This document shows, piece after piece, positions 14,256 to 23,553 of a DNA stretch of 44,371 bases. How positions within the stretch are numbered: position 1 is the first letter of the stretch; each line of letters begins with the position of its first letter. This DNA is from Escherichia phage 6949. Both the position numbers and the translations under genes were made by a program. Where the stretch lies: sequence record OL362273.1, one strand, 5' to 3'. Under the pieces are notes generated by a model. It did no database searches, was not told the DNA's origin, and was given only the letters and a program-made list of their open reading frames with translations.

Positions 14256-14278
14256 ATTTACCGGACACTATAGGATAG
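14256..14278 (+). promoter_or_regulatory. SP6-type phage promoter
   Basis: ATTTACCGGACACTATA followed by GGATAG; the predicted +1 G is at 14273. Confidence 0.8.
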
Positions 14279-14439
14279 CCGTCGGAGACGGGAAAGAAAG
14301 GGAAGATAAAGGATATAAAGGAAGTAATAGGTATTAAAGGTTATATAGGTTATCTAGGAATACCTATTACCTTCTTCCTTCCTCTTATTACCACTCAGAG
14401 GAAGGGCAGACCTAGGTTGTCTCACATGTGAGACTTCGT
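14279..14439. other. Origin-like region between twin phage promoters (possible primary replication origin)
   Basis: A purine-rich tract (GGAAAGAAAGGGAAGATAAAGGATATAAAGGAAG) and its pyrimidine-rich mirror flank a 12 bp perfect inverted repeat (GTAATAGGTATT at 14324-14335 and AATACCTATTAC at 14359-14370) around an AT-rich spacer. The position matches the T7 primary origin between gene 1 and gene 1.1. Confidence 0.4.
14419..14434. repeat. Palindrome family copy (GTCTCACATGTGAGAC, perfect)
   Basis: A 16 bp perfect palindrome, 5 bp upstream of the promoter at 14440. Confidence 0.55.
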
Positions 14440-14462
14440 ATTTACCGGACAGTATAGATAAG
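14440..14462 (+). promoter_or_regulatory. SP6-type phage promoter variant (ACAGTATAG core)
   Basis: ATTTACCGGACAGTATA followed by GATAAG. It carries a C to G change in the core relative to the other copies. Confidence 0.6.
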
Positions 14463-14619: not shown

Positions 14620-16608
14620 ATGGCTATTATTCAGAATGTACCGTGTCCTGCCTGTCAAAAGAACGGACATGATATTACTGGCAATCATTTAATGATCTTT
14701 GACGACGGGGCAGGATACTGTAACCGTGGTCACTTCCATGATAACGGTAAACCTTATTACCACAAGCCGGAAGGTGGCATCGAGATAACCGAGTTACCTA
14801 TTACTGGCAATATCAAATATACACCTTCTCAATTCAAAGAAATGGAGAAGGAAGGGAAGATAAGCGACCCTAAATTACGTGCCATCGCACTAGGTGGTAT
14901 GCGTATGAAAGACCGTTGGGAGGTCATGAATGAGCAAGAAAGGGCAGACCAAGAAGCAGAGTGGAAACTTGATGTTGAATGGTTCCTCACGCTTAAGCGT
15001 AAGAACCTTGTTTCCCGACACATTCGCGGCGACATTTGCGCATTGTATGATGTACGTGTCGGACACGATGAAGAGGGTAGAGTCTCGCGGCATTACTATC
15101 CACGCTTCGAGAAAGGTGAGCTAGTAGGAGCTAAGTGTCGTACCTTACCTAAAGATTTCAAGTTTGGACACTTAGGTAAACTCTTTGGTATGCAAGATCT
15201 TTTCGGTATGAATACTTTGTCTCACGTGTTAGACAAGGGAAGACGAAAGGATTGCTTGCTTATTGTGGGTGGGGAACTGGATGCACTAGCAGCGCAGCAG
15301 ATGCTCCTTGATTCTGCCAAGGGTACTAAGTGGGAAGGTCAACCTTACCATGTATGGTCTGTTAACAAAGGGGAGTCTTGCCTTGAAGAGATTGTGCAGA
15401 ACCGTGAACACATCGCCCAATTCAAGAAGATTATTTGGGGCTTCGATGGGGATGAGGTAGGGCAGAAGCAGAACCAGCAAGCGGCTCGCCTGTTCCCTGG
15501 CAAATCCTATATCCTTGAGTACCCTTCTGGTTGCAAAGATGCCAACAAGGCATTGATGGCTGGCAAGGCTAAAGAGTTTGTTGATGCATGGTTTAATGCC
15601 AAGTCATCTGATGAAGTCTTTGGTAGCCAGATTAAATCTATCGCATCTCAAAGGGATAAGCTCAAGGCTGCACGTCCAGAGCAAGGACTATCATGGCCTT
15701 GGCCTAAGCTGAACAAGGTAACGCTAGGTATTCGTAAGAATCAGCTTATCATTGTAGGTGCAGGGTCTGGTGTAGGTAAGACTGAGTTCCTTCGTGAAGT
15801 AGTTAAGCACCTCATTGAAGAACACGGTGAATCTGTAGGCATCATTTCTACAGAAGACCCGATGGTCAAGGTGTCCCGTGCTTTTATCGGCAAGTGGATT
15901 GATAAGCGTATTGAGTTACCGCCAACCAACGACCCGAAAGAAGACGGATACCGTGAGGTGTTCGATTACACCGAGGAAGAAGCTAACGCCGCCATTGATT
16001 ATGTAGCTGATACAGGTAAGCTGTTTGTAGTTGACCTAGAGGGTGACTATTCGATGGAAAAGGTAGAGCAAACTTGCCTAGAGTTTGAGGCTATGGGTAT
16101 TTCTAATATCATCATTGATAACTTAACGGGGATTAAATTAGATGAGCGTGCTTTTGGTGGGAAGGTTGGTGCACTTGATGAATGCGTCAAGCGGATTGGT
16201 ACTATCAAAGACCGACACCCGGTTACTATATTCCTTGTATCACACCTTACACGTCCTCCGGCAAACCGTACCCAACACGAAGAAGGTGGCGAAGTTATCC
16301 TTTCTGACTTCCGAGGCTCAGGCGCTATCGGATTCTGGGCATCTTACGCCTTGGGGATTGAGCGTAATACAAGAGCTGAAACGCTTGACGAAAGGACTAC
16401 CACGTACATCTCATGTGTCAAAGACCGCGACCAAGGTATCTGGACTGGAACCAAGGTCATGCTTAAGGGTGACATTCAAACCGGACGTTTAATGGAACCA
16501 CAAGCCCGTACTAAGTCATTTGACACCGGCGAAGCAAGGCAACAAGAAGTACCGGATTTACCGGACACTATAGAAGAGACTAACTTCGATGAAGAAAGTG
16601 AGTTCTGA
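14620..16608 (+). CDS. DNA primase/helicase (T7 gp4-like)
   Basis: The N-terminus has a zinc-binding motif (CPACQ...C.RGH), and the helicase domain has a Walker A motif (GAGSGVGKTEF). The C-terminus is acidic and ends in Phe (DEESEF), as in T7 gp4. Confidence 0.93.
   Translation: MAIIQNVPCPACQKNGHDITGNHLMIFDDGAGYCNRGHFHDNGKPYYHKPEGGIEITELPITGNIKYTPSQFKEMEKEGKISDPKLRAIALGGMRMKDRWEVMNEQERADQEAEWKLDVEWFLTLKRKNLVSRHIRGDICALYDVRVGHDEEGRVSRHYYPRFEKGELVGAKCRTLPKDFKFGHLGKLFGMQDLFGMNTLSHVLDKGRRKDCLLIVGGELDALAAQQMLLDSAKGTKWEGQPYHVWSVNKGESCLEEIVQNREHIAQFKKIIWGFDGDEVGQKQNQQAARLFPGKSYILEYPSGCKDANKALMAGKAKEFVDAWFNAKSSDEVFGSQIKSIASQRDKLKAARPEQGLSWPWPKLNKVTLGIRKNQLIIVGAGSGVGKTEFLREVVKHLIEEHGESVGIISTEDPMVKVSRAFIGKWIDKRIELPPTNDPKEDGYREVFDYTEEEANAAIDYVADTGKLFVVDLEGDYSMEKVEQTCLEFEAMGISNIIIDNLTGIKLDERAFGGKVGALDECVKRIGTIKDRHPVTIFLVSHLTRPPANRTQHEEGGEVILSDFRGSGAIGFWASYALGIERNTRAETLDERTTTYISCVKDRDQGIWTGTKVMLKGDIQTGRLMEPQARTKSFDTGEARQQEVPDLPDTIEETNFDEESEF
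16556..16578 (+). promoter_or_regulatory. SP6-type phage promoter inside the 3' end of the primase/helicase gene
   Basis: ATTTACCGGACACTATA followed by GAAGAG; the predicted +1 G is at 16573. Confidence 0.75.
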
Positions 16609-16628
16609 TTAGTGTATTTATCAGGGCT

Positions 16629-16646
16629 TGTCTCACACGTGAGACA
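16629..16646. repeat. Palindrome family copy (TGTCTCAC-AC-GTGAGACA)
   Basis: Two 8 bp inverted arms separated by 2 bp, extendable with a G-U pair to about 11 bp, followed by CTCTTATT. Confidence 0.55.
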
Positions 16647-16684
16647 GGCTCTTATTAAGTACATTAAATAACTGGAGATTGATT

Positions 16685-17368
16685 ATGTATAAATTAGTAT
16701 TGAATGTAGGTGATTATGTTCGTAACATCAATGTAACCTCACGTAGATATCGTTGCCGTGGTACTGTGACTAATGTAAGTGAAAACAGCTACTATGTAGA
16801 ATACAGTAATGGTATTAGACAGGCTTATCAAAAGGAATCAGCACATAACTACCTTGAGAAGATTGGAGAGGTAAGCAATCAATGTAAGTGCGTACACGAT
16901 GAGATTTGCGATAAGTGTGCCCGCCAGCTGCATAAAATGCTATTATACCCTCTTCGCTATGGTGCTGGTGTTCAAACATTAGCAGAGGCATATGGCAAAA
17001 GTAAGACCACACTCAAGAAAGAGCGCCGCAATGTAATCACTGGTAAGACTCAAAGTGAAATGATTAAACTATGTGGCACTGCATTAGGTGTTACGCAGTT
17101 TAATACTCGTTCATTGGGTAAATCCACAGGGCAAGCTATGGTGAAGATTGGCGAAGCCATGATGCATCCAAATGTACCTGTACGAATCATGGATGTTGAC
17201 CATGCAATCACAGAACACGGTACGCAACGACGTGTAATTAATAAGCATTTTGCCGACACTATAGAAGGTATTATTCGTAAGCAAGAGTTGAAGGGTCTTC
17301 ACATCTTAAATGGTGAAGAATTACTGTACCTACCTATCGTTACTGAAGAAACATACGTGAATATCTAA
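16685..17368 (+). CDS. Hypothetical protein with Cys cluster and a possible helix-turn-helix segment
   Basis: RBS GGAG precedes ATG 16685; the track start at 16679 is a TTG. The protein has a CKCVHDEICDKC cluster and the segment YGAGVQTLAEAYGKSKTTL. Confidence 0.6.
   Translation: MYKLVLNVGDYVRNINVTSRRYRCRGTVTNVSENSYYVEYSNGIRQAYQKESAHNYLEKIGEVSNQCKCVHDEICDKCARQLHKMLLYPLRYGAGVQTLAEAYGKSKTTLKKERRNVITGKTQSEMIKLCGTALGVTQFNTRSLGKSTGQAMVKIGEAMMHPNVPVRIMDVDHAITEHGTQRRVINKHFADTIEGIIRKQELKGLHILNGEELLYLPIVTEETYVNI
17247..17269 (+). promoter_or_regulatory. Candidate internal SP6-type promoter (degenerate upstream half)
   Basis: ATTTTGCCGACACTATA followed by GAAGGT. The core from -12 to +5 is intact, and there are three mismatches upstream. 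Confidence 0.4.
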
Positions 17369-17378
17369 GGAGTTAATC

Positions 17379-17537
17379 ATGACTAAGGTATTAATTTATA
17401 TGCGTGGACCTCATAAATGCTATGCAGTTGTAGCACCAAATGGCGTTAAACCTTATCGTACTTCAAAAAGATTGGCATTAATAGGTGCTAGTAGTAGTGC
17501 AAGTTTCCAAATGGAACTTTTTTGGTCATTGGACTGA
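17379..17537 (+). CDS. Small hypothetical protein (52 aa)
   Basis: RBS AAGGAG precedes ATG 17379. The ORF is below the track cutoff. Confidence 0.45.
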   Translation: MTKVLIYMRGPHKCYAVVAPNGVKPYRTSKRLALIGASSSASFQMELFWSLD

Positions 17538-17773: not shown

Positions 17774-17791
17774 TGTCTCACGTGTGAGACA
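17774..17791. repeat. Palindrome family copy (TGTCTCAC-GT-GTGAGACA)
   Basis: Two 8 bp inverted arms separated by 2 bp, followed by GCCTTTAT. Confidence 0.55.
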
Positions 17792-22038: not shown

Positions 22039-22845
22039 ATGGCACGTGGTGATTTTGATTTTGGTGCTCAGGTTACTAAAGCTGAAGGTAAGGTTTTTAA
22101 GAACCCTGAAGTTGGCGATCATGAAGCAGTAATCTCTGGCATCATTCATGTGGGTTCCTTCCAAGATATCTTTAAGAAAGGTAATACCACTGAAGCTAAG
22201 AAGCCAGCAAACTTTGTTCTTGTTAAGATTGTACTGATGGGTGACGATGACAAGAACGAAGATGATTCTCGCATGGAACAGTGGATGGCTGTGCCTCTGA
22301 AGTCTGGTGACAAGGCAACCTTGACTAAGTTCCTGAATGCAGTTGACCCTAAAGAGCTGCTTGGTGGTTTCGATGACTTCATCGGTGAATGCCTGACTGC
22401 AACTATGGTTGGCTCTGGCGACAAGAAGGATGATGGTACTTTCAAGTATGTTAACTGGAAAGGCTTTGGCGGTATGCCTGATAAGTTGAAGAAGCTTGTA
22501 CTGGCTCAGGTAGAAGAGGAAGGTCTGTCTATGACAGGTCATATCACCTTCGACAAGCTGACCAAAGAAATCCTTGATGACATTCCTGCTAACTTGGTGC
22601 GTCAATACTTCCTTAATGAAACACCTCGTGGTAAGAACCTGTCTGTTGCTGGTTCTCACGTAGAAGCAATCATTAAAGCTGCTCGTGAAGAAGACCCAGA
22701 GTGGAAGAAAGCCAAGAAGAAAGATGACGAGGATGCTACTCCAGCTAATCGTAAATCTCTGGATACTGGAGAGTCTGTTCCACAGGAAGTACCTGAAGCA
22801 GAAGATACTCCTGCACCGGAGATGGATGAGGACGCGGAATATTAA
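22039..22845 (+). CDS. Putative single-stranded DNA-binding protein (T7 gp2.5-like)
   Basis: A 268 aa protein with a strongly acidic C-terminal tail ending in an aromatic residue (..EMDEDAEY), which is the gp2.5 hallmark. It sits in the replication module. The assignment is by architecture only. Confidence 0.5.
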   Translation: MARGDFDFGAQVTKAEGKVFKNPEVGDHEAVISGIIHVGSFQDIFKKGNTTEAKKPANFVLVKIVLMGDDDKNEDDSRMEQWMAVPLKSGDKATLTKFLNAVDPKELLGGFDDFIGECLTATMVGSGDKKDDGTFKYVNWKGFGGMPDKLKKLVLAQVEEEGLSMTGHITFDKLTKEILDDIPANLVRQYFLNETPRGKNLSVAGSHVEAIIKAAREEDPEWKKAKKKDDEDATPANRKSLDTGESVPQEVPEAEDTPAPEMDEDAEY

Positions 22846-23178: not shown

Positions 23179-23553
23179 ATGTTCAAGATTGAAACTATCG
23201 TAAACCGTGTTGTTAAAGGTGCTGCTCTGGTATCCGTTGAGTCTTTCATTATCGTCGATGAAGCTGATCAACTGGTAGCTGGTACTAAGGCTTATGATAC
23301 TCGTGAAGAAGCTCAGGCTAAGATTGACAGCATGGGTAACTTCGCTGCGGGTCTGGAGTTCGCTCGTGCTTGCTTCCCTGAGCAGGCTGACAAAGCTCAG
23401 ATTGGTAAGGCTAATATCGTAGCTGAATATCTGGATTGGATTGCTGCTGGTAAGCCGGTGAAAGAAGTTAAAGCTGCGGAAGAAGTTGAAGCTCCGGCAG
23501 TAGAAGAAGTAGCTGCACCGGAAGTTCCGGTAAGCGAAGAAGAAGAGTTTTAA
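23179..23553 (+). CDS. Acidic hypothetical protein (124 aa) in a stand-alone promoter-gene-terminator unit
   Basis: RBS AAGGAG precedes the ATG. The C-terminal tail is acidic and ends SEEEEF. A terminator follows directly. Confidence 0.6.
   Translation: MFKIETIVNRVVKGAALVSVESFIIVDEADQLVAGTKAYDTREEAQAKIDSMGNFAAGLEFARACFPEQADKAQIGKANIVAEYLDWIAAGKPVKEVKAAEEVEAPAVEEVAAPEVPVSEEEEF

What the first reader, a model, noticed from the sequence alone, without database searches (positions are those of the whole stretch)
16556..17368. Cys-cluster protein with a possible helix-turn-helix and an internal promoter
The 227 aa protein after the primase/helicase has a zinc-binding-like cluster CKCVHDEICDKC and an HTH-like segment YGAGVQTLAEAYGKSKTTL. 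Its gene is preceded by a promoter inside the primase 3' end and a palindrome copy, and it contains a degenerate SP6-type promoter internally (17247-17269). It is a speculative candidate for a protein that binds the palindrome family.
Basis: inference. Interest (0 to 1): 0.4.

Follow-up and report, generated by a model that had tools for sequence, protein, structure and literature searches.

The report
Conserved SP6-group phage accessory protein gp10
This is the K1-5 gp10 / SP6 gp11 gene, a conserved protein of unknown function next to the primase/helicase of SP6-like phages; it is predicted to have a Tudor-like barrel and a winged-helix-like domain, and nothing links it to the palindromes, so it is ordinary.

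Summary
The sequence features are real. They are a 227-aa ORF (ATG 16685 to stop 17368), a CxCxH-x3-CxxC cluster, an exact phage promoter in the primase 3' end, a 13-bp hairpin, and an internal promoter-like site with an exact 13-nt core. The window is a Vectrevirus (K1-5/K1E group). The ORF is the orthologue of K1-5 gp10 / SP6 gp11 and is annotated as hypothetical in every record seen.

It lies, with the Cys cluster, in a low-confidence linker that varies by insertions and deletions and is missing in some homologues. Close relatives have lost individual cysteines.

The palindromes behave as sense-strand RNA hairpins. Their type does not track gp10 divergence, so specific palindrome binding is unlikely. 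The SP6 reference strain has a 29-aa in-frame deletion in the conserved domain, so the gene is probably accessory.

Best guess: a dispensable nucleic-acid- or protein-binding accessory factor. Interest is low to moderate.

The parts
16556..16578 (+). Phage (SP6-type) promoter inside the 3' end of the primase/helicase gene. The predicted start is G16573. It drives gp10 and the downstream genes.
   Evidence: It matches the window's own promoter consensus exactly. It is conserved at the same place in all Vectrevirus relatives and in SP6. Promoter function is inferred from consensus and conservation, not shown.
16609..16667 (+). Intergenic hairpin. The inner 13-bp stem at 16623-16652 has the core GTCTCAC-ACGT-GAGAC, and an outer 12-bp stem surrounds it. 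It is one member of the genome-wide hairpin family and is followed by CUUAUU.
   Evidence: RNA fold -30.2 kcal/mol, z = -4.9, with 0 of 200 shuffles as stable. Family copies are listed. G.U wobbles and compensatory outer-stem changes against the copies at 17775 and 40045 were read.
16674..16677 (+). Shine-Dalgarno GGAG, 7 nt upstream of ATG 16685.
   Evidence: Read directly from the sequence. The LL11 record annotates the equivalent RBS.
16685..17368 (+). gp10 coding sequence (227 aa plus stop). It is the orthologue of K1-5 gp10, K1E gp10 and SP6 gp11, and belongs to PHROG 6703.
16685..16864 (+). N-terminal Tudor/SH3/KOW-like beta-barrel (residues 1-60). It is basic, with a mean net charge of +4.6 across the family.
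16883..16918 (+). Cys cluster C67-x-C69-x-H71-x3-C75-x2-C78, a possible small metal-binding knuckle. The CxxC lies at the N-terminus of helix 76-91.
   Evidence: Present in 146 of 208 full-length members. It is lost or eroded in close relatives and absent in short-linker members. Model confidence here is low. Metal binding was not tested.
16958..17014 (+). It is part of the variable linker and is not a helix-turn-helix.
   Evidence: pLDDT 53-67, with only one 4-residue helix. The region varies by insertions and deletions and is missing in several homologues.
17018..17365 (+). Conserved C-terminal domain (residues 112-227). It has winged-helix-like topology with an N-terminal two-helix extension. 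Invariant residues in the 45-sequence SP6-group alignment include R114 R115 N116, D172 H173 and P217-V225 (PIVTEETYV). R142, G145, A158 and P162 are conserved in at least 90% of the wider family.
17204..17281 (+). Putative helix 2 to helix 3 (the HTH) of the winged-helix-like fold, residues 174-199.
   Evidence: The secondary-structure order in the model is H39-53, E59-60, H67-70, H75-92, E98-101, E105-108 in domain numbering. The mapping to winged-helix elements is my inference.
17247..17269 (+). Internal secondary SP6-type promoter-like site, with predicted start G17264. It lies in the codons for F189-G195 and would feed gp10.5 through to the DNA polymerase.
   Evidence: Exact 13-nt core. 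The core 17255-17267 is invariant in 12 in-frame relatives, including four consecutive synonymous third positions and the ATA codon, while 67% of third positions in the gene vary. Present in 13 of 15 distinct Vectrevirus genomes and absent in SP6. Activity was not tested.

Best explanation
The ORF is the Vectrevirus orthologue of K1-5 gp10 / SP6 gp11. It is a middle (DNA-metabolism module) gene that sits directly after the primase/helicase in every SP6-group (Molineuxvirinae) genome examined.

It encodes a basic two-domain protein:
- a Tudor/SH3-like barrel (residues 1-60);
- a variable linker (61-111), which in this lineage carries a CxCxH...CxxC knuckle;
- a conserved ~115-aa domain with winged-helix topology.

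The most likely mode of action is as a dispensable accessory factor that works by binding. The preferred partner is nucleic acid, held without specificity for the palindrome core through the basic barrel and the winged-helix-like domain. It would act alongside the phage replication and transcription machinery.

The gene is transcribed from the phage promoter in the primase 3' end, through the hairpin. It also contains a conserved weaker internal promoter that adds transcription of the downstream genes up to the DNA polymerase.

Shown here: orthology, synteny, domain architecture, fold class, conservation pattern and promoter matches. Inferred: nucleic-acid binding, accessory status and promoter activity.
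For: - Orthology and synteny. Distant homologues (about 25-30% identity) also lie between the primase/helicase and DNA polymerase A. Stand-alone C-domains lie next to ligase, or near ligase, PC4, DnaB and primase.
- The two domains are functionally coupled. One phage splits them into adjacent ORFs.
- The protein is basic in all 45 aligned members.
- The linker is dispensable.
- Accessory status: the SP6 reference gp11 has an in-frame 29-aa deletion that removes the most conserved C-domain motif, while a near-identical full-length allele exists. Two relatives carry truncated ORFs.
- Promoters.
Against: - Winged helices also mediate protein-protein contacts. UFL1 and ScpB are among the hits.
- The putative recognition helix is poorly conserved across genera. 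The invariant residues (RRN, the R-x-x-G-x-S/T-T helix cap, DH, PIVTEETYV) lie mostly outside it. This could instead indicate a protein interface or a catalytic or phosphate-binding site.
- One stand-alone homologue sits between capsid and tail genes, not in a replication module.
- No experimental data on this family were found in the held literature.
Confidence: 0.38

Rival explanations
1. Protein-protein adaptor or host-takeover factor. The Tudor-like barrel and the winged-helix-like domain would bind a host or phage protein, for example host RNA polymerase in the way the Tudor-like domains of CarD, UvrD and PcrA do, or a defence or housekeeping protein. This would resemble the many dispensable T7 class II proteins that inhibit host factors.
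Against: No partner can be named from the sequence. The protein is uniformly basic, which fits nucleic acid better. Barrel similarity is generic to the whole SH3/Tudor/KOW fold class; the top hit is NdhS.
Confidence: 0.3
2. gp10 would be a sequence-specific DNA-binding regulator that recognises the GTCTCAC-RYGT-GAGAC palindrome family as double-stranded operators, using a Zn cluster and an HTH.
For: The palindrome family is real and intergenic, and three copies lie 2-17 nt upstream of phage promoters. Both gp10 and a palindrome family are found throughout the SP6 group. A winged-helix-like fold exists in the protein.
Against: The proposed HTH and Zn cluster lie in a dispensable, poorly modelled linker. 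Long copies pair through G.U wobbles and compensatory changes on the sense strand only, and 6 of 9 SP6 copies are imperfect as DNA palindromes but pair as RNA. The palindrome type does not co-vary with gp10: gp10 at 71% and 68% identity sits with the GTCCAAC type, and gp10 at ~25% identity sits with the GTCTCAC type. The putative recognition helix differs among phages that share the same palindrome.
Confidence: 0.06
3. The C-terminal domain is a small enzyme or nucleotide/phosphate-binding module. The R-x-x-G-x-S/T-T helix cap would hold a phosphate, and D172/H173 with R114/R115/N116 would form a catalytic site.
Confidence: 0.1

Closest known systems
K1-5 gp10 / K1E gp10 / SP6 gp11 (PHROG 6703; related PHROGs 25669, 18700, 32156, 5437)
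   Same: Direct orthologues with 82% (K1-5, K1E) and about 40% (SP6) identity. They have the same length class and the same position after the primase/helicase.
   Different: Nothing functional is known for any of them. All are annotated as hypothetical or unknown function. SP6 gp11 has a 29-aa internal deletion, and SP6 lacks the internal promoter.
Winged-helix (wHTH) DNA-binding domains, e.g. OmpR/PhoB effector domains (8hml, 7cx5, 5x5l), PurR N-terminal domain, SSV1 F-112
   Same: The C-domain has the secondary-structure order alpha1-beta1-alpha2-alpha3-beta-hairpin. About 60-70 residues superpose at 2.6-3.0 A.
Tudor/SH3/KOW-like small barrels (NdhS, CarD RID, UvrD/PcrA C-terminal Tudor, NusG/Spt5 KOW, PsaE)
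   Different: No Pfam membership above threshold; HAS-barrel scores 17 bits against a cut-off of 25.2. The binding partner is unknown. The conserved V-R-N-I motif is specific to this family.
Secondary class II promoters embedded in coding sequence of T7-group phages (my own knowledge: T7 phi4c, phi4.3 and phi4.7 between genes 4 and 5)
   Same: A phage-RNAP promoter in the helicase 3' end and another inside the next gene, both upstream of the DNA polymerase.
   Different: These have SP6-type consensus. The internal site deviates at -13, -12 and -10, and its activity is untested.
Small Cys4/Cys3His zinc knuckles
   Same: Four Cys and one His within 12 residues, with the CxxC at a helix N-terminus.
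   Different: It is not conserved through the family and is eroded in close relatives. There is no profile match, and the local model is low-confidence.

Membership tests
   The AlphaFold model shows coil with one 4-residue helix at pLDDT 53-67. The segment varies by insertions and deletions and is absent in several homologues.
Winged-helix (wHTH) fold, C-terminal domain | Topology alpha1-beta1-alpha2-alpha3-beta2-beta3 | tested here: met
   DSSP order H39-53, E59-60, H67-70, H75-92, E98-101, E105-108 in a model at pLDDT 95.6.
Winged-helix (wHTH) fold, C-terminal domain | Significant structural similarity to solved winged-helix domains | tested here: inconclusive
Winged-helix (wHTH) fold, C-terminal domain | DNA binding through helix 3 and the wing | not testable with these tools
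   This needs EMSA or a structure with DNA. Helix 3 is poorly conserved across genera.
Zinc finger / zinc knuckle | Four Cys/His ligands with fixed spacing, conserved in the family | tested here: inconclusive
   The motif is present here and in 146 of 208 members. Close relatives carry C67Y or C78Y/R or have lost all four, and short-linker members lack it.
Zinc finger / zinc knuckle | Bound metal ion | not testable with these tools
   This needs metal analysis of purified protein.
Tudor/SH3-like beta-barrel | Five-stranded small barrel with structural similarity to family members | tested here: met
P-loop NTPase (considered because of LGKSTG) | Walker A GxxxxGK[ST] after a beta-strand, with an invariant Lys | tested here: not met
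   The residue at the first-G position is Asn. The Lys is replaced by R, Q, H, T, L or E in homologues. The loop follows a helix, not a strand.
T7 gp2.5-type single-stranded-DNA-binding protein (considered because none is annotated) | Acidic C-terminal tail ending in an aromatic residue | tested here: not met
   gp10 ends ...TEETYVNI, and this segment is well ordered in the model. Another ORF (22039-22845) ends ...EMDEDAEY and is the better candidate.
SP6-type phage promoter (16556-16578 and 17247-17269) | Match to the 23-nt consensus of the genome's own promoters | tested here: met
   The 16556 site matches the modal consensus 23/23. The 17247 site has an exact -9 to +4 core with mismatches at -13, -12 and -10.
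SP6-type phage promoter (16556-16578 and 17247-17269) | Transcription initiation by the phage RNA polymerase | not testable with these tools
   This needs 5'-end mapping or in vitro transcription. Conservation of synonymous sites is suggestive only.

The most novel reading that the evidence does not exclude
gp10 is the trans-acting factor for the conserved hairpin family, acting on RNA rather than DNA. The basic Tudor/KOW-like barrel and the winged-helix-like domain would bind the GUCUCAC/GUCYAAC hairpins in phage transcripts, or the polymerase paused at them. This would control termination, processing or stability between gene blocks, and would be a phage-encoded RNA-hairpin-dependent regulator specific to SP6-like phages.
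Probability: 0.06. Interest if true: 0.6.

Novelty: new member of a known kind. Interest (0 to 1): 0.25.

Why it matters
gp10/gp11 is one of the few genes conserved and syntenic across all the SP6-like therapeutic and model phages examined (K1-5, K1E, SP6, and Klebsiella, Proteus and Pectobacterium relatives), yet it has no annotation. The domain-level description gives a concrete starting point for experiments. It consists of a Tudor-like barrel plus a Pfam-less winged-helix-like domain that also circulates as a stand-alone ~100-aa protein in phage replication modules. It also corrects where a DNA-binding element would lie. The result separates the protein from the hairpin family, which looks like an RNA-level element in its own right. 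None of this overturns current understanding. It is incremental annotation of a conserved hypothetical protein.

Tried and rejected
Searches that found nothing:
- Pfam, NCBIfam and PDB-sequence searches gave no significant hits for the whole protein, the stand-alone homologues or the larger homologues.
- All PHROG hits are to families of unknown function.
- Rfam gave no match in the window.
- The AFDB50 fold library was not available.
- The two 2004 SP6/K1-5 genome papers, which might describe the promoters and hairpins, are not held. Literature searches found no functional study of this gene.

Ideas rejected:
- P-loop NTPase, from 'LGKSTG'. The motif and topology do not fit.
- Missing SSB. 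Other ORFs carry the acidic aromatic tails.
- Co-variation of gp10 with hairpin type. None was found.

A limitation: an all-relatives variability window test for the internal promoter was uninformative. One divergent relative (L015) has a replaced segment there. The test was repeated without it.
Full report
**Identity of the window and the gene.** Region 16500-17400 is 99.8% identical to Escherichia phage 6948. It matches 79 phage records, nearly all Vectrevirus (K1-5/K1E group, Molineuxvirinae, the SP6 supergroup). The ORF from ATG 16685 to the stop at 17368 encodes 227 aa and has GGAG at 16674-16677. It corresponds to K1-5 gene 10, K1E gp10 and SP6 gene 11, all annotated only as hypothetical. 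It matches PHROG 6703, unknown function, at E = 3e-116. It has no Pfam, NCBIfam or PDB-sequence match above threshold.

**Synteny.** tblastn finds the gene in 160 phage records from Escherichia, Klebsiella, Salmonella, Proteus, Pectobacterium, Erwinia, Citrobacter and Lelliottia phages. In SP6, PM85, K1-ULIP33 and PP1 it is always the first gene after the primase/helicase.

**The observation.**
- The Cys cluster CKCVHDEICDKC covers residues 67-78 (16883-16918).
- The promoter at 16556-16578 (ATTTACCGGACACTATAGAAGAG, +1 at G16573) lies in the last codons of the primase/helicase gene. It equals the genome's own consensus. The 13-nt core matches 13 sites at up to 2 mismatches (8 exact), against 1.4 expected by chance.
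- The hairpin has a 13-bp inner stem at 16623-16652 and an outer stem spanning 16609-16667. The RNA folds at -30.2 kcal/mol with z = -4.9.
- The internal site at 17247-17269 (ATTTTGCCGACACTATAGAAGGT, +1 at G17264) has the exact -9 to +4 core. It differs from the consensus at -13, -12 and -10.

All of these are real and well beyond chance.

**Conservation of the promoters.** The primase-3' promoter is conserved in every relative examined and in SP6. K1-5 has one mismatch. The internal site is present in 13 of 15 distinct Vectrevirus genomes. It is lost where the segment has been replaced (L015) or disrupted (L016), and it is absent from SP6.

Among 12 in-frame relatives the core 17255-17267 is invariant. 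This includes four consecutive synonymous third positions and the ATA codon, although 67% of third positions in the gene vary. The encoded residues (ADTIEG) are not conserved in other genera. This suggests selection on the DNA sequence. It is not proof of promoter activity.

I aligned 45 diverse homologues and ran an exhaustive profile search, which gave 102 hits at E < 1e-3. They show three parts.
- Residues 1-60 are conserved (V12 R13 N14 I15, Y48, H54).
- Residues 61-111 are a linker that differs in length by tens of residues. It is reduced to about 20 residues in the Proteus-phage and some other members.
- Residues 112-227 are the most conserved part (R114 R115 N116, R142, G145, T148, D172 H173, and PIVTEETYV at 217-225).

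The four-Cys motif occurs in 146 of 208 full-length members. Close relatives at 83-85% identity carry C67Y, C78Y or C78R, and one has lost all four cysteines. In the full-length AlphaFold model the linker has pLDDT 53-67. Residues 92-110 are coil with a single 4-residue helix. The proposed HTH is therefore not supported. The Cys knuckle, if it binds metal, is a lineage-specific and dispensable embellishment.

I modelled the C-terminal domain separately with a 78-sequence alignment that included the stand-alone homologues. The model reached pLDDT 95.6 and pTM 0.82. Its secondary-structure order, after an N-terminal strand and two helices, is helix, strand, short helix, long helix, beta-hairpin. 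This is the winged-helix topology.

**Wider family and context.** The C-terminal domain occurs alone as ~100-aa proteins (P0211, P0216, P0217, P0225, P0232 and others). The barrel also occurs alone. None has a Pfam match, and the PHROGs they hit are all of unknown function.
- In one SP6-like contig the gene is split into adjacent ORFs. A 137-aa barrel ORF (35% identity over 65 aa, E = 3e-10) is followed by the 105-aa C-domain ORF. This links the two domains functionally.
- Distant full-length and stand-alone homologues again lie between the primase/helicase and DNA polymerase A.
- Others lie after DNA ligase, or near ligase, PC4, DnaB and primase in a 59-kb phage.
- One exception lies between capsid and tail genes.

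The protein is basic in all 45 aligned members, with pI about 8.5-10. The barrel has a mean net charge of +4.6.

**Is it essential?** The SP6 reference gp11 carries an in-frame 29-residue deletion that removes the conserved KTQ...FNTRALGRSTG segment. An 83%-identical allele, differing mainly by that deletion, is full length. Two relatives have truncated ORFs, which could be assembly errors. The gene is strongly conserved in nature but is probably dispensable for growth in the laboratory.

**The palindrome hypothesis.** The family is real: GTCTCAC-RYGT-GAGAC, with seven good copies and one degenerate copy inside the primase gene. Other genera carry an equivalent family at syntenic intergenic sites with a different core. 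PM85, K1-ULIP33 and PP1 have TGTCCAAC..GTTGGACA, and SP6 has GTC[TC]AAC..GTTGGAC.

Three results argue for sense-strand RNA hairpins rather than double-stranded operators.
- The copies at 16630, 17775 and 40045 extend to 13-14 bp through G.U wobbles, which would be C.A mismatches on the other strand.
- The outer stems of those copies show a compensatory C:G to G:C change, and they are followed by CUUUAU-like tracts.
- Six of nine SP6 copies have a T that makes the DNA palindrome imperfect but gives a G.U pair in RNA.

The hairpin type does not follow gp10. A gp10 at 71% identity (L015) and one at 68% (SE29) sit with GTCCAAC hairpins. gp10 homologues at about 25-30% identity (L023, L024) sit with GTCTCAC hairpins. 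The putative recognition helix also differs among phages that share the same hairpin. Specific recognition of the palindrome core by gp10 is therefore unlikely. It is not excluded, because binding to invariant stem positions or to shape remains possible.

**Alternatives examined.**
- P-loop NTPase (suggested by LGKSTG). The Walker A pattern is not met, the Lys is not conserved, and the loop follows a helix.
- The missing SSB of this phage group. Acidic C-terminal tails ending in an aromatic residue are found on the primase/helicase (DEESEF), on the 268-aa ORF 22039-22845 (EMDEDAEY) and on the 124-aa ORF 23179-23553 (SEEEEF), but not on gp10.
- An enzyme. The many invariant polar residues within the SP6 group keep this possible. 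However, D172/H173 are not conserved in the wider family, and no enzyme fold matches.

**Verdict.** The sequence features are confirmed. It is wrong about where that fold lies, about the role of the Cys cluster, and probably about the target.

The best-supported description is a conserved, probably dispensable, basic two-domain accessory protein of the DNA-metabolism module. It most likely acts by binding nucleic acid, with a protein partner as the main alternative. The gene is expressed from the promoter in the primase 3' end and carries a conserved secondary promoter for the downstream genes. The gene is already known as a hypothetical protein. The new information is domain-level annotation, so interest is low to moderate.

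Noticed in passing
window 8804, 14238, 14419, 15219, 16630, 17775, 23075, 40045; SP6 (L019) 493, 6093, 6264, 7071, 8547, 9383, 14255, 17752, 30569; PM85 (L020), K1-ULIP33 (L021), PP1 (L022): A hairpin family occupies syntenic intergenic sites in all the SP6-like genomes examined. It has two core types, GUCUCAC..GUGAGAC and GUCYAAC..GUUGGAC, that differ by compensatory stem changes, and each genome examined carries only one core type. Long copies look like sense-strand RNA hairpins followed by CUUUAU. Short copies sit 2-17 nt upstream of phage promoters. There is no Rfam match. The hairpin type seems to go with the promoter type (ATTTACCGG... versus ATTTAGGGG...) rather than with gp10.
   Followed up: partly
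SP6 gene 11 (L019 8601-9212) compared with P0122: The SP6 reference genome has an in-frame 29-codon deletion between two 'TG' repeats. It removes the most conserved motif of the gp11 C-terminal domain. A near-identical full-length allele exists in a Salmonella Heidelberg assembly.
   Followed up: yes
window 22039-22845, 23179-23553 and the primase/helicase end at 16608: Three replication-module proteins end in acidic tails with a terminal aromatic residue (…EMDEDAEY, …SEEEEF, …DEESEF). This is the hallmark of T7 gp2.5 and gp4 polymerase-binding tails. The 268-aa ORF (PHROG 862, unknown function) is a candidate for the unannotated SSB.
   Followed up: partly
L005 (Salmonella phage SE29) 877-1947: An exact 1000-bp tandem duplication repeats the primase/helicase 3' part, its promoter and the hairpin. 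It creates an extra 246-aa ORF that is a helicase C-terminal fragment. It may be real or an assembly artefact.
   Followed up: partly
L002 (Sem3) 1609-1770; K1E gp9.5 (L033 3395-3556): Some Vectreviruses carry an extra 53-aa ORF (PHROG 15806, unknown function) inserted between the primase/helicase and the hairpin. The window lacks it.
   Followed up: no
L024 5585-6318: An SP6-like metagenomic phage encodes the gp10 barrel and the C-terminal domain as two adjacent ORFs. HNH endonuclease genes lie on both sides of the region.
   Followed up: yes
L006 (Klebsiella phage RothI) 2998-3330: A stand-alone homologue of the gp10 C-terminal domain lies between the major capsid and tail tubular protein genes. 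This context differs from all the other homologues examined.
   Followed up: no
window 14440-14462: A second promoter-like site, ATTTACCGGACAGTATAGATAAG (3 mismatches), follows the hairpin at 14419, about 180 nt after the promoter at 14256. The pair is conserved in K1-5 and K1E. Its position downstream of the RNA polymerase gene recalls the T7 primary origin region with its paired promoters (my own knowledge).
   Followed up: no
L016 and L017 (IMG/VR contigs): The gp10 ORF is truncated to 192 aa and 144 aa by frameshifts in two relatives. These may be pseudogenes or sequencing errors.
   Followed up: no
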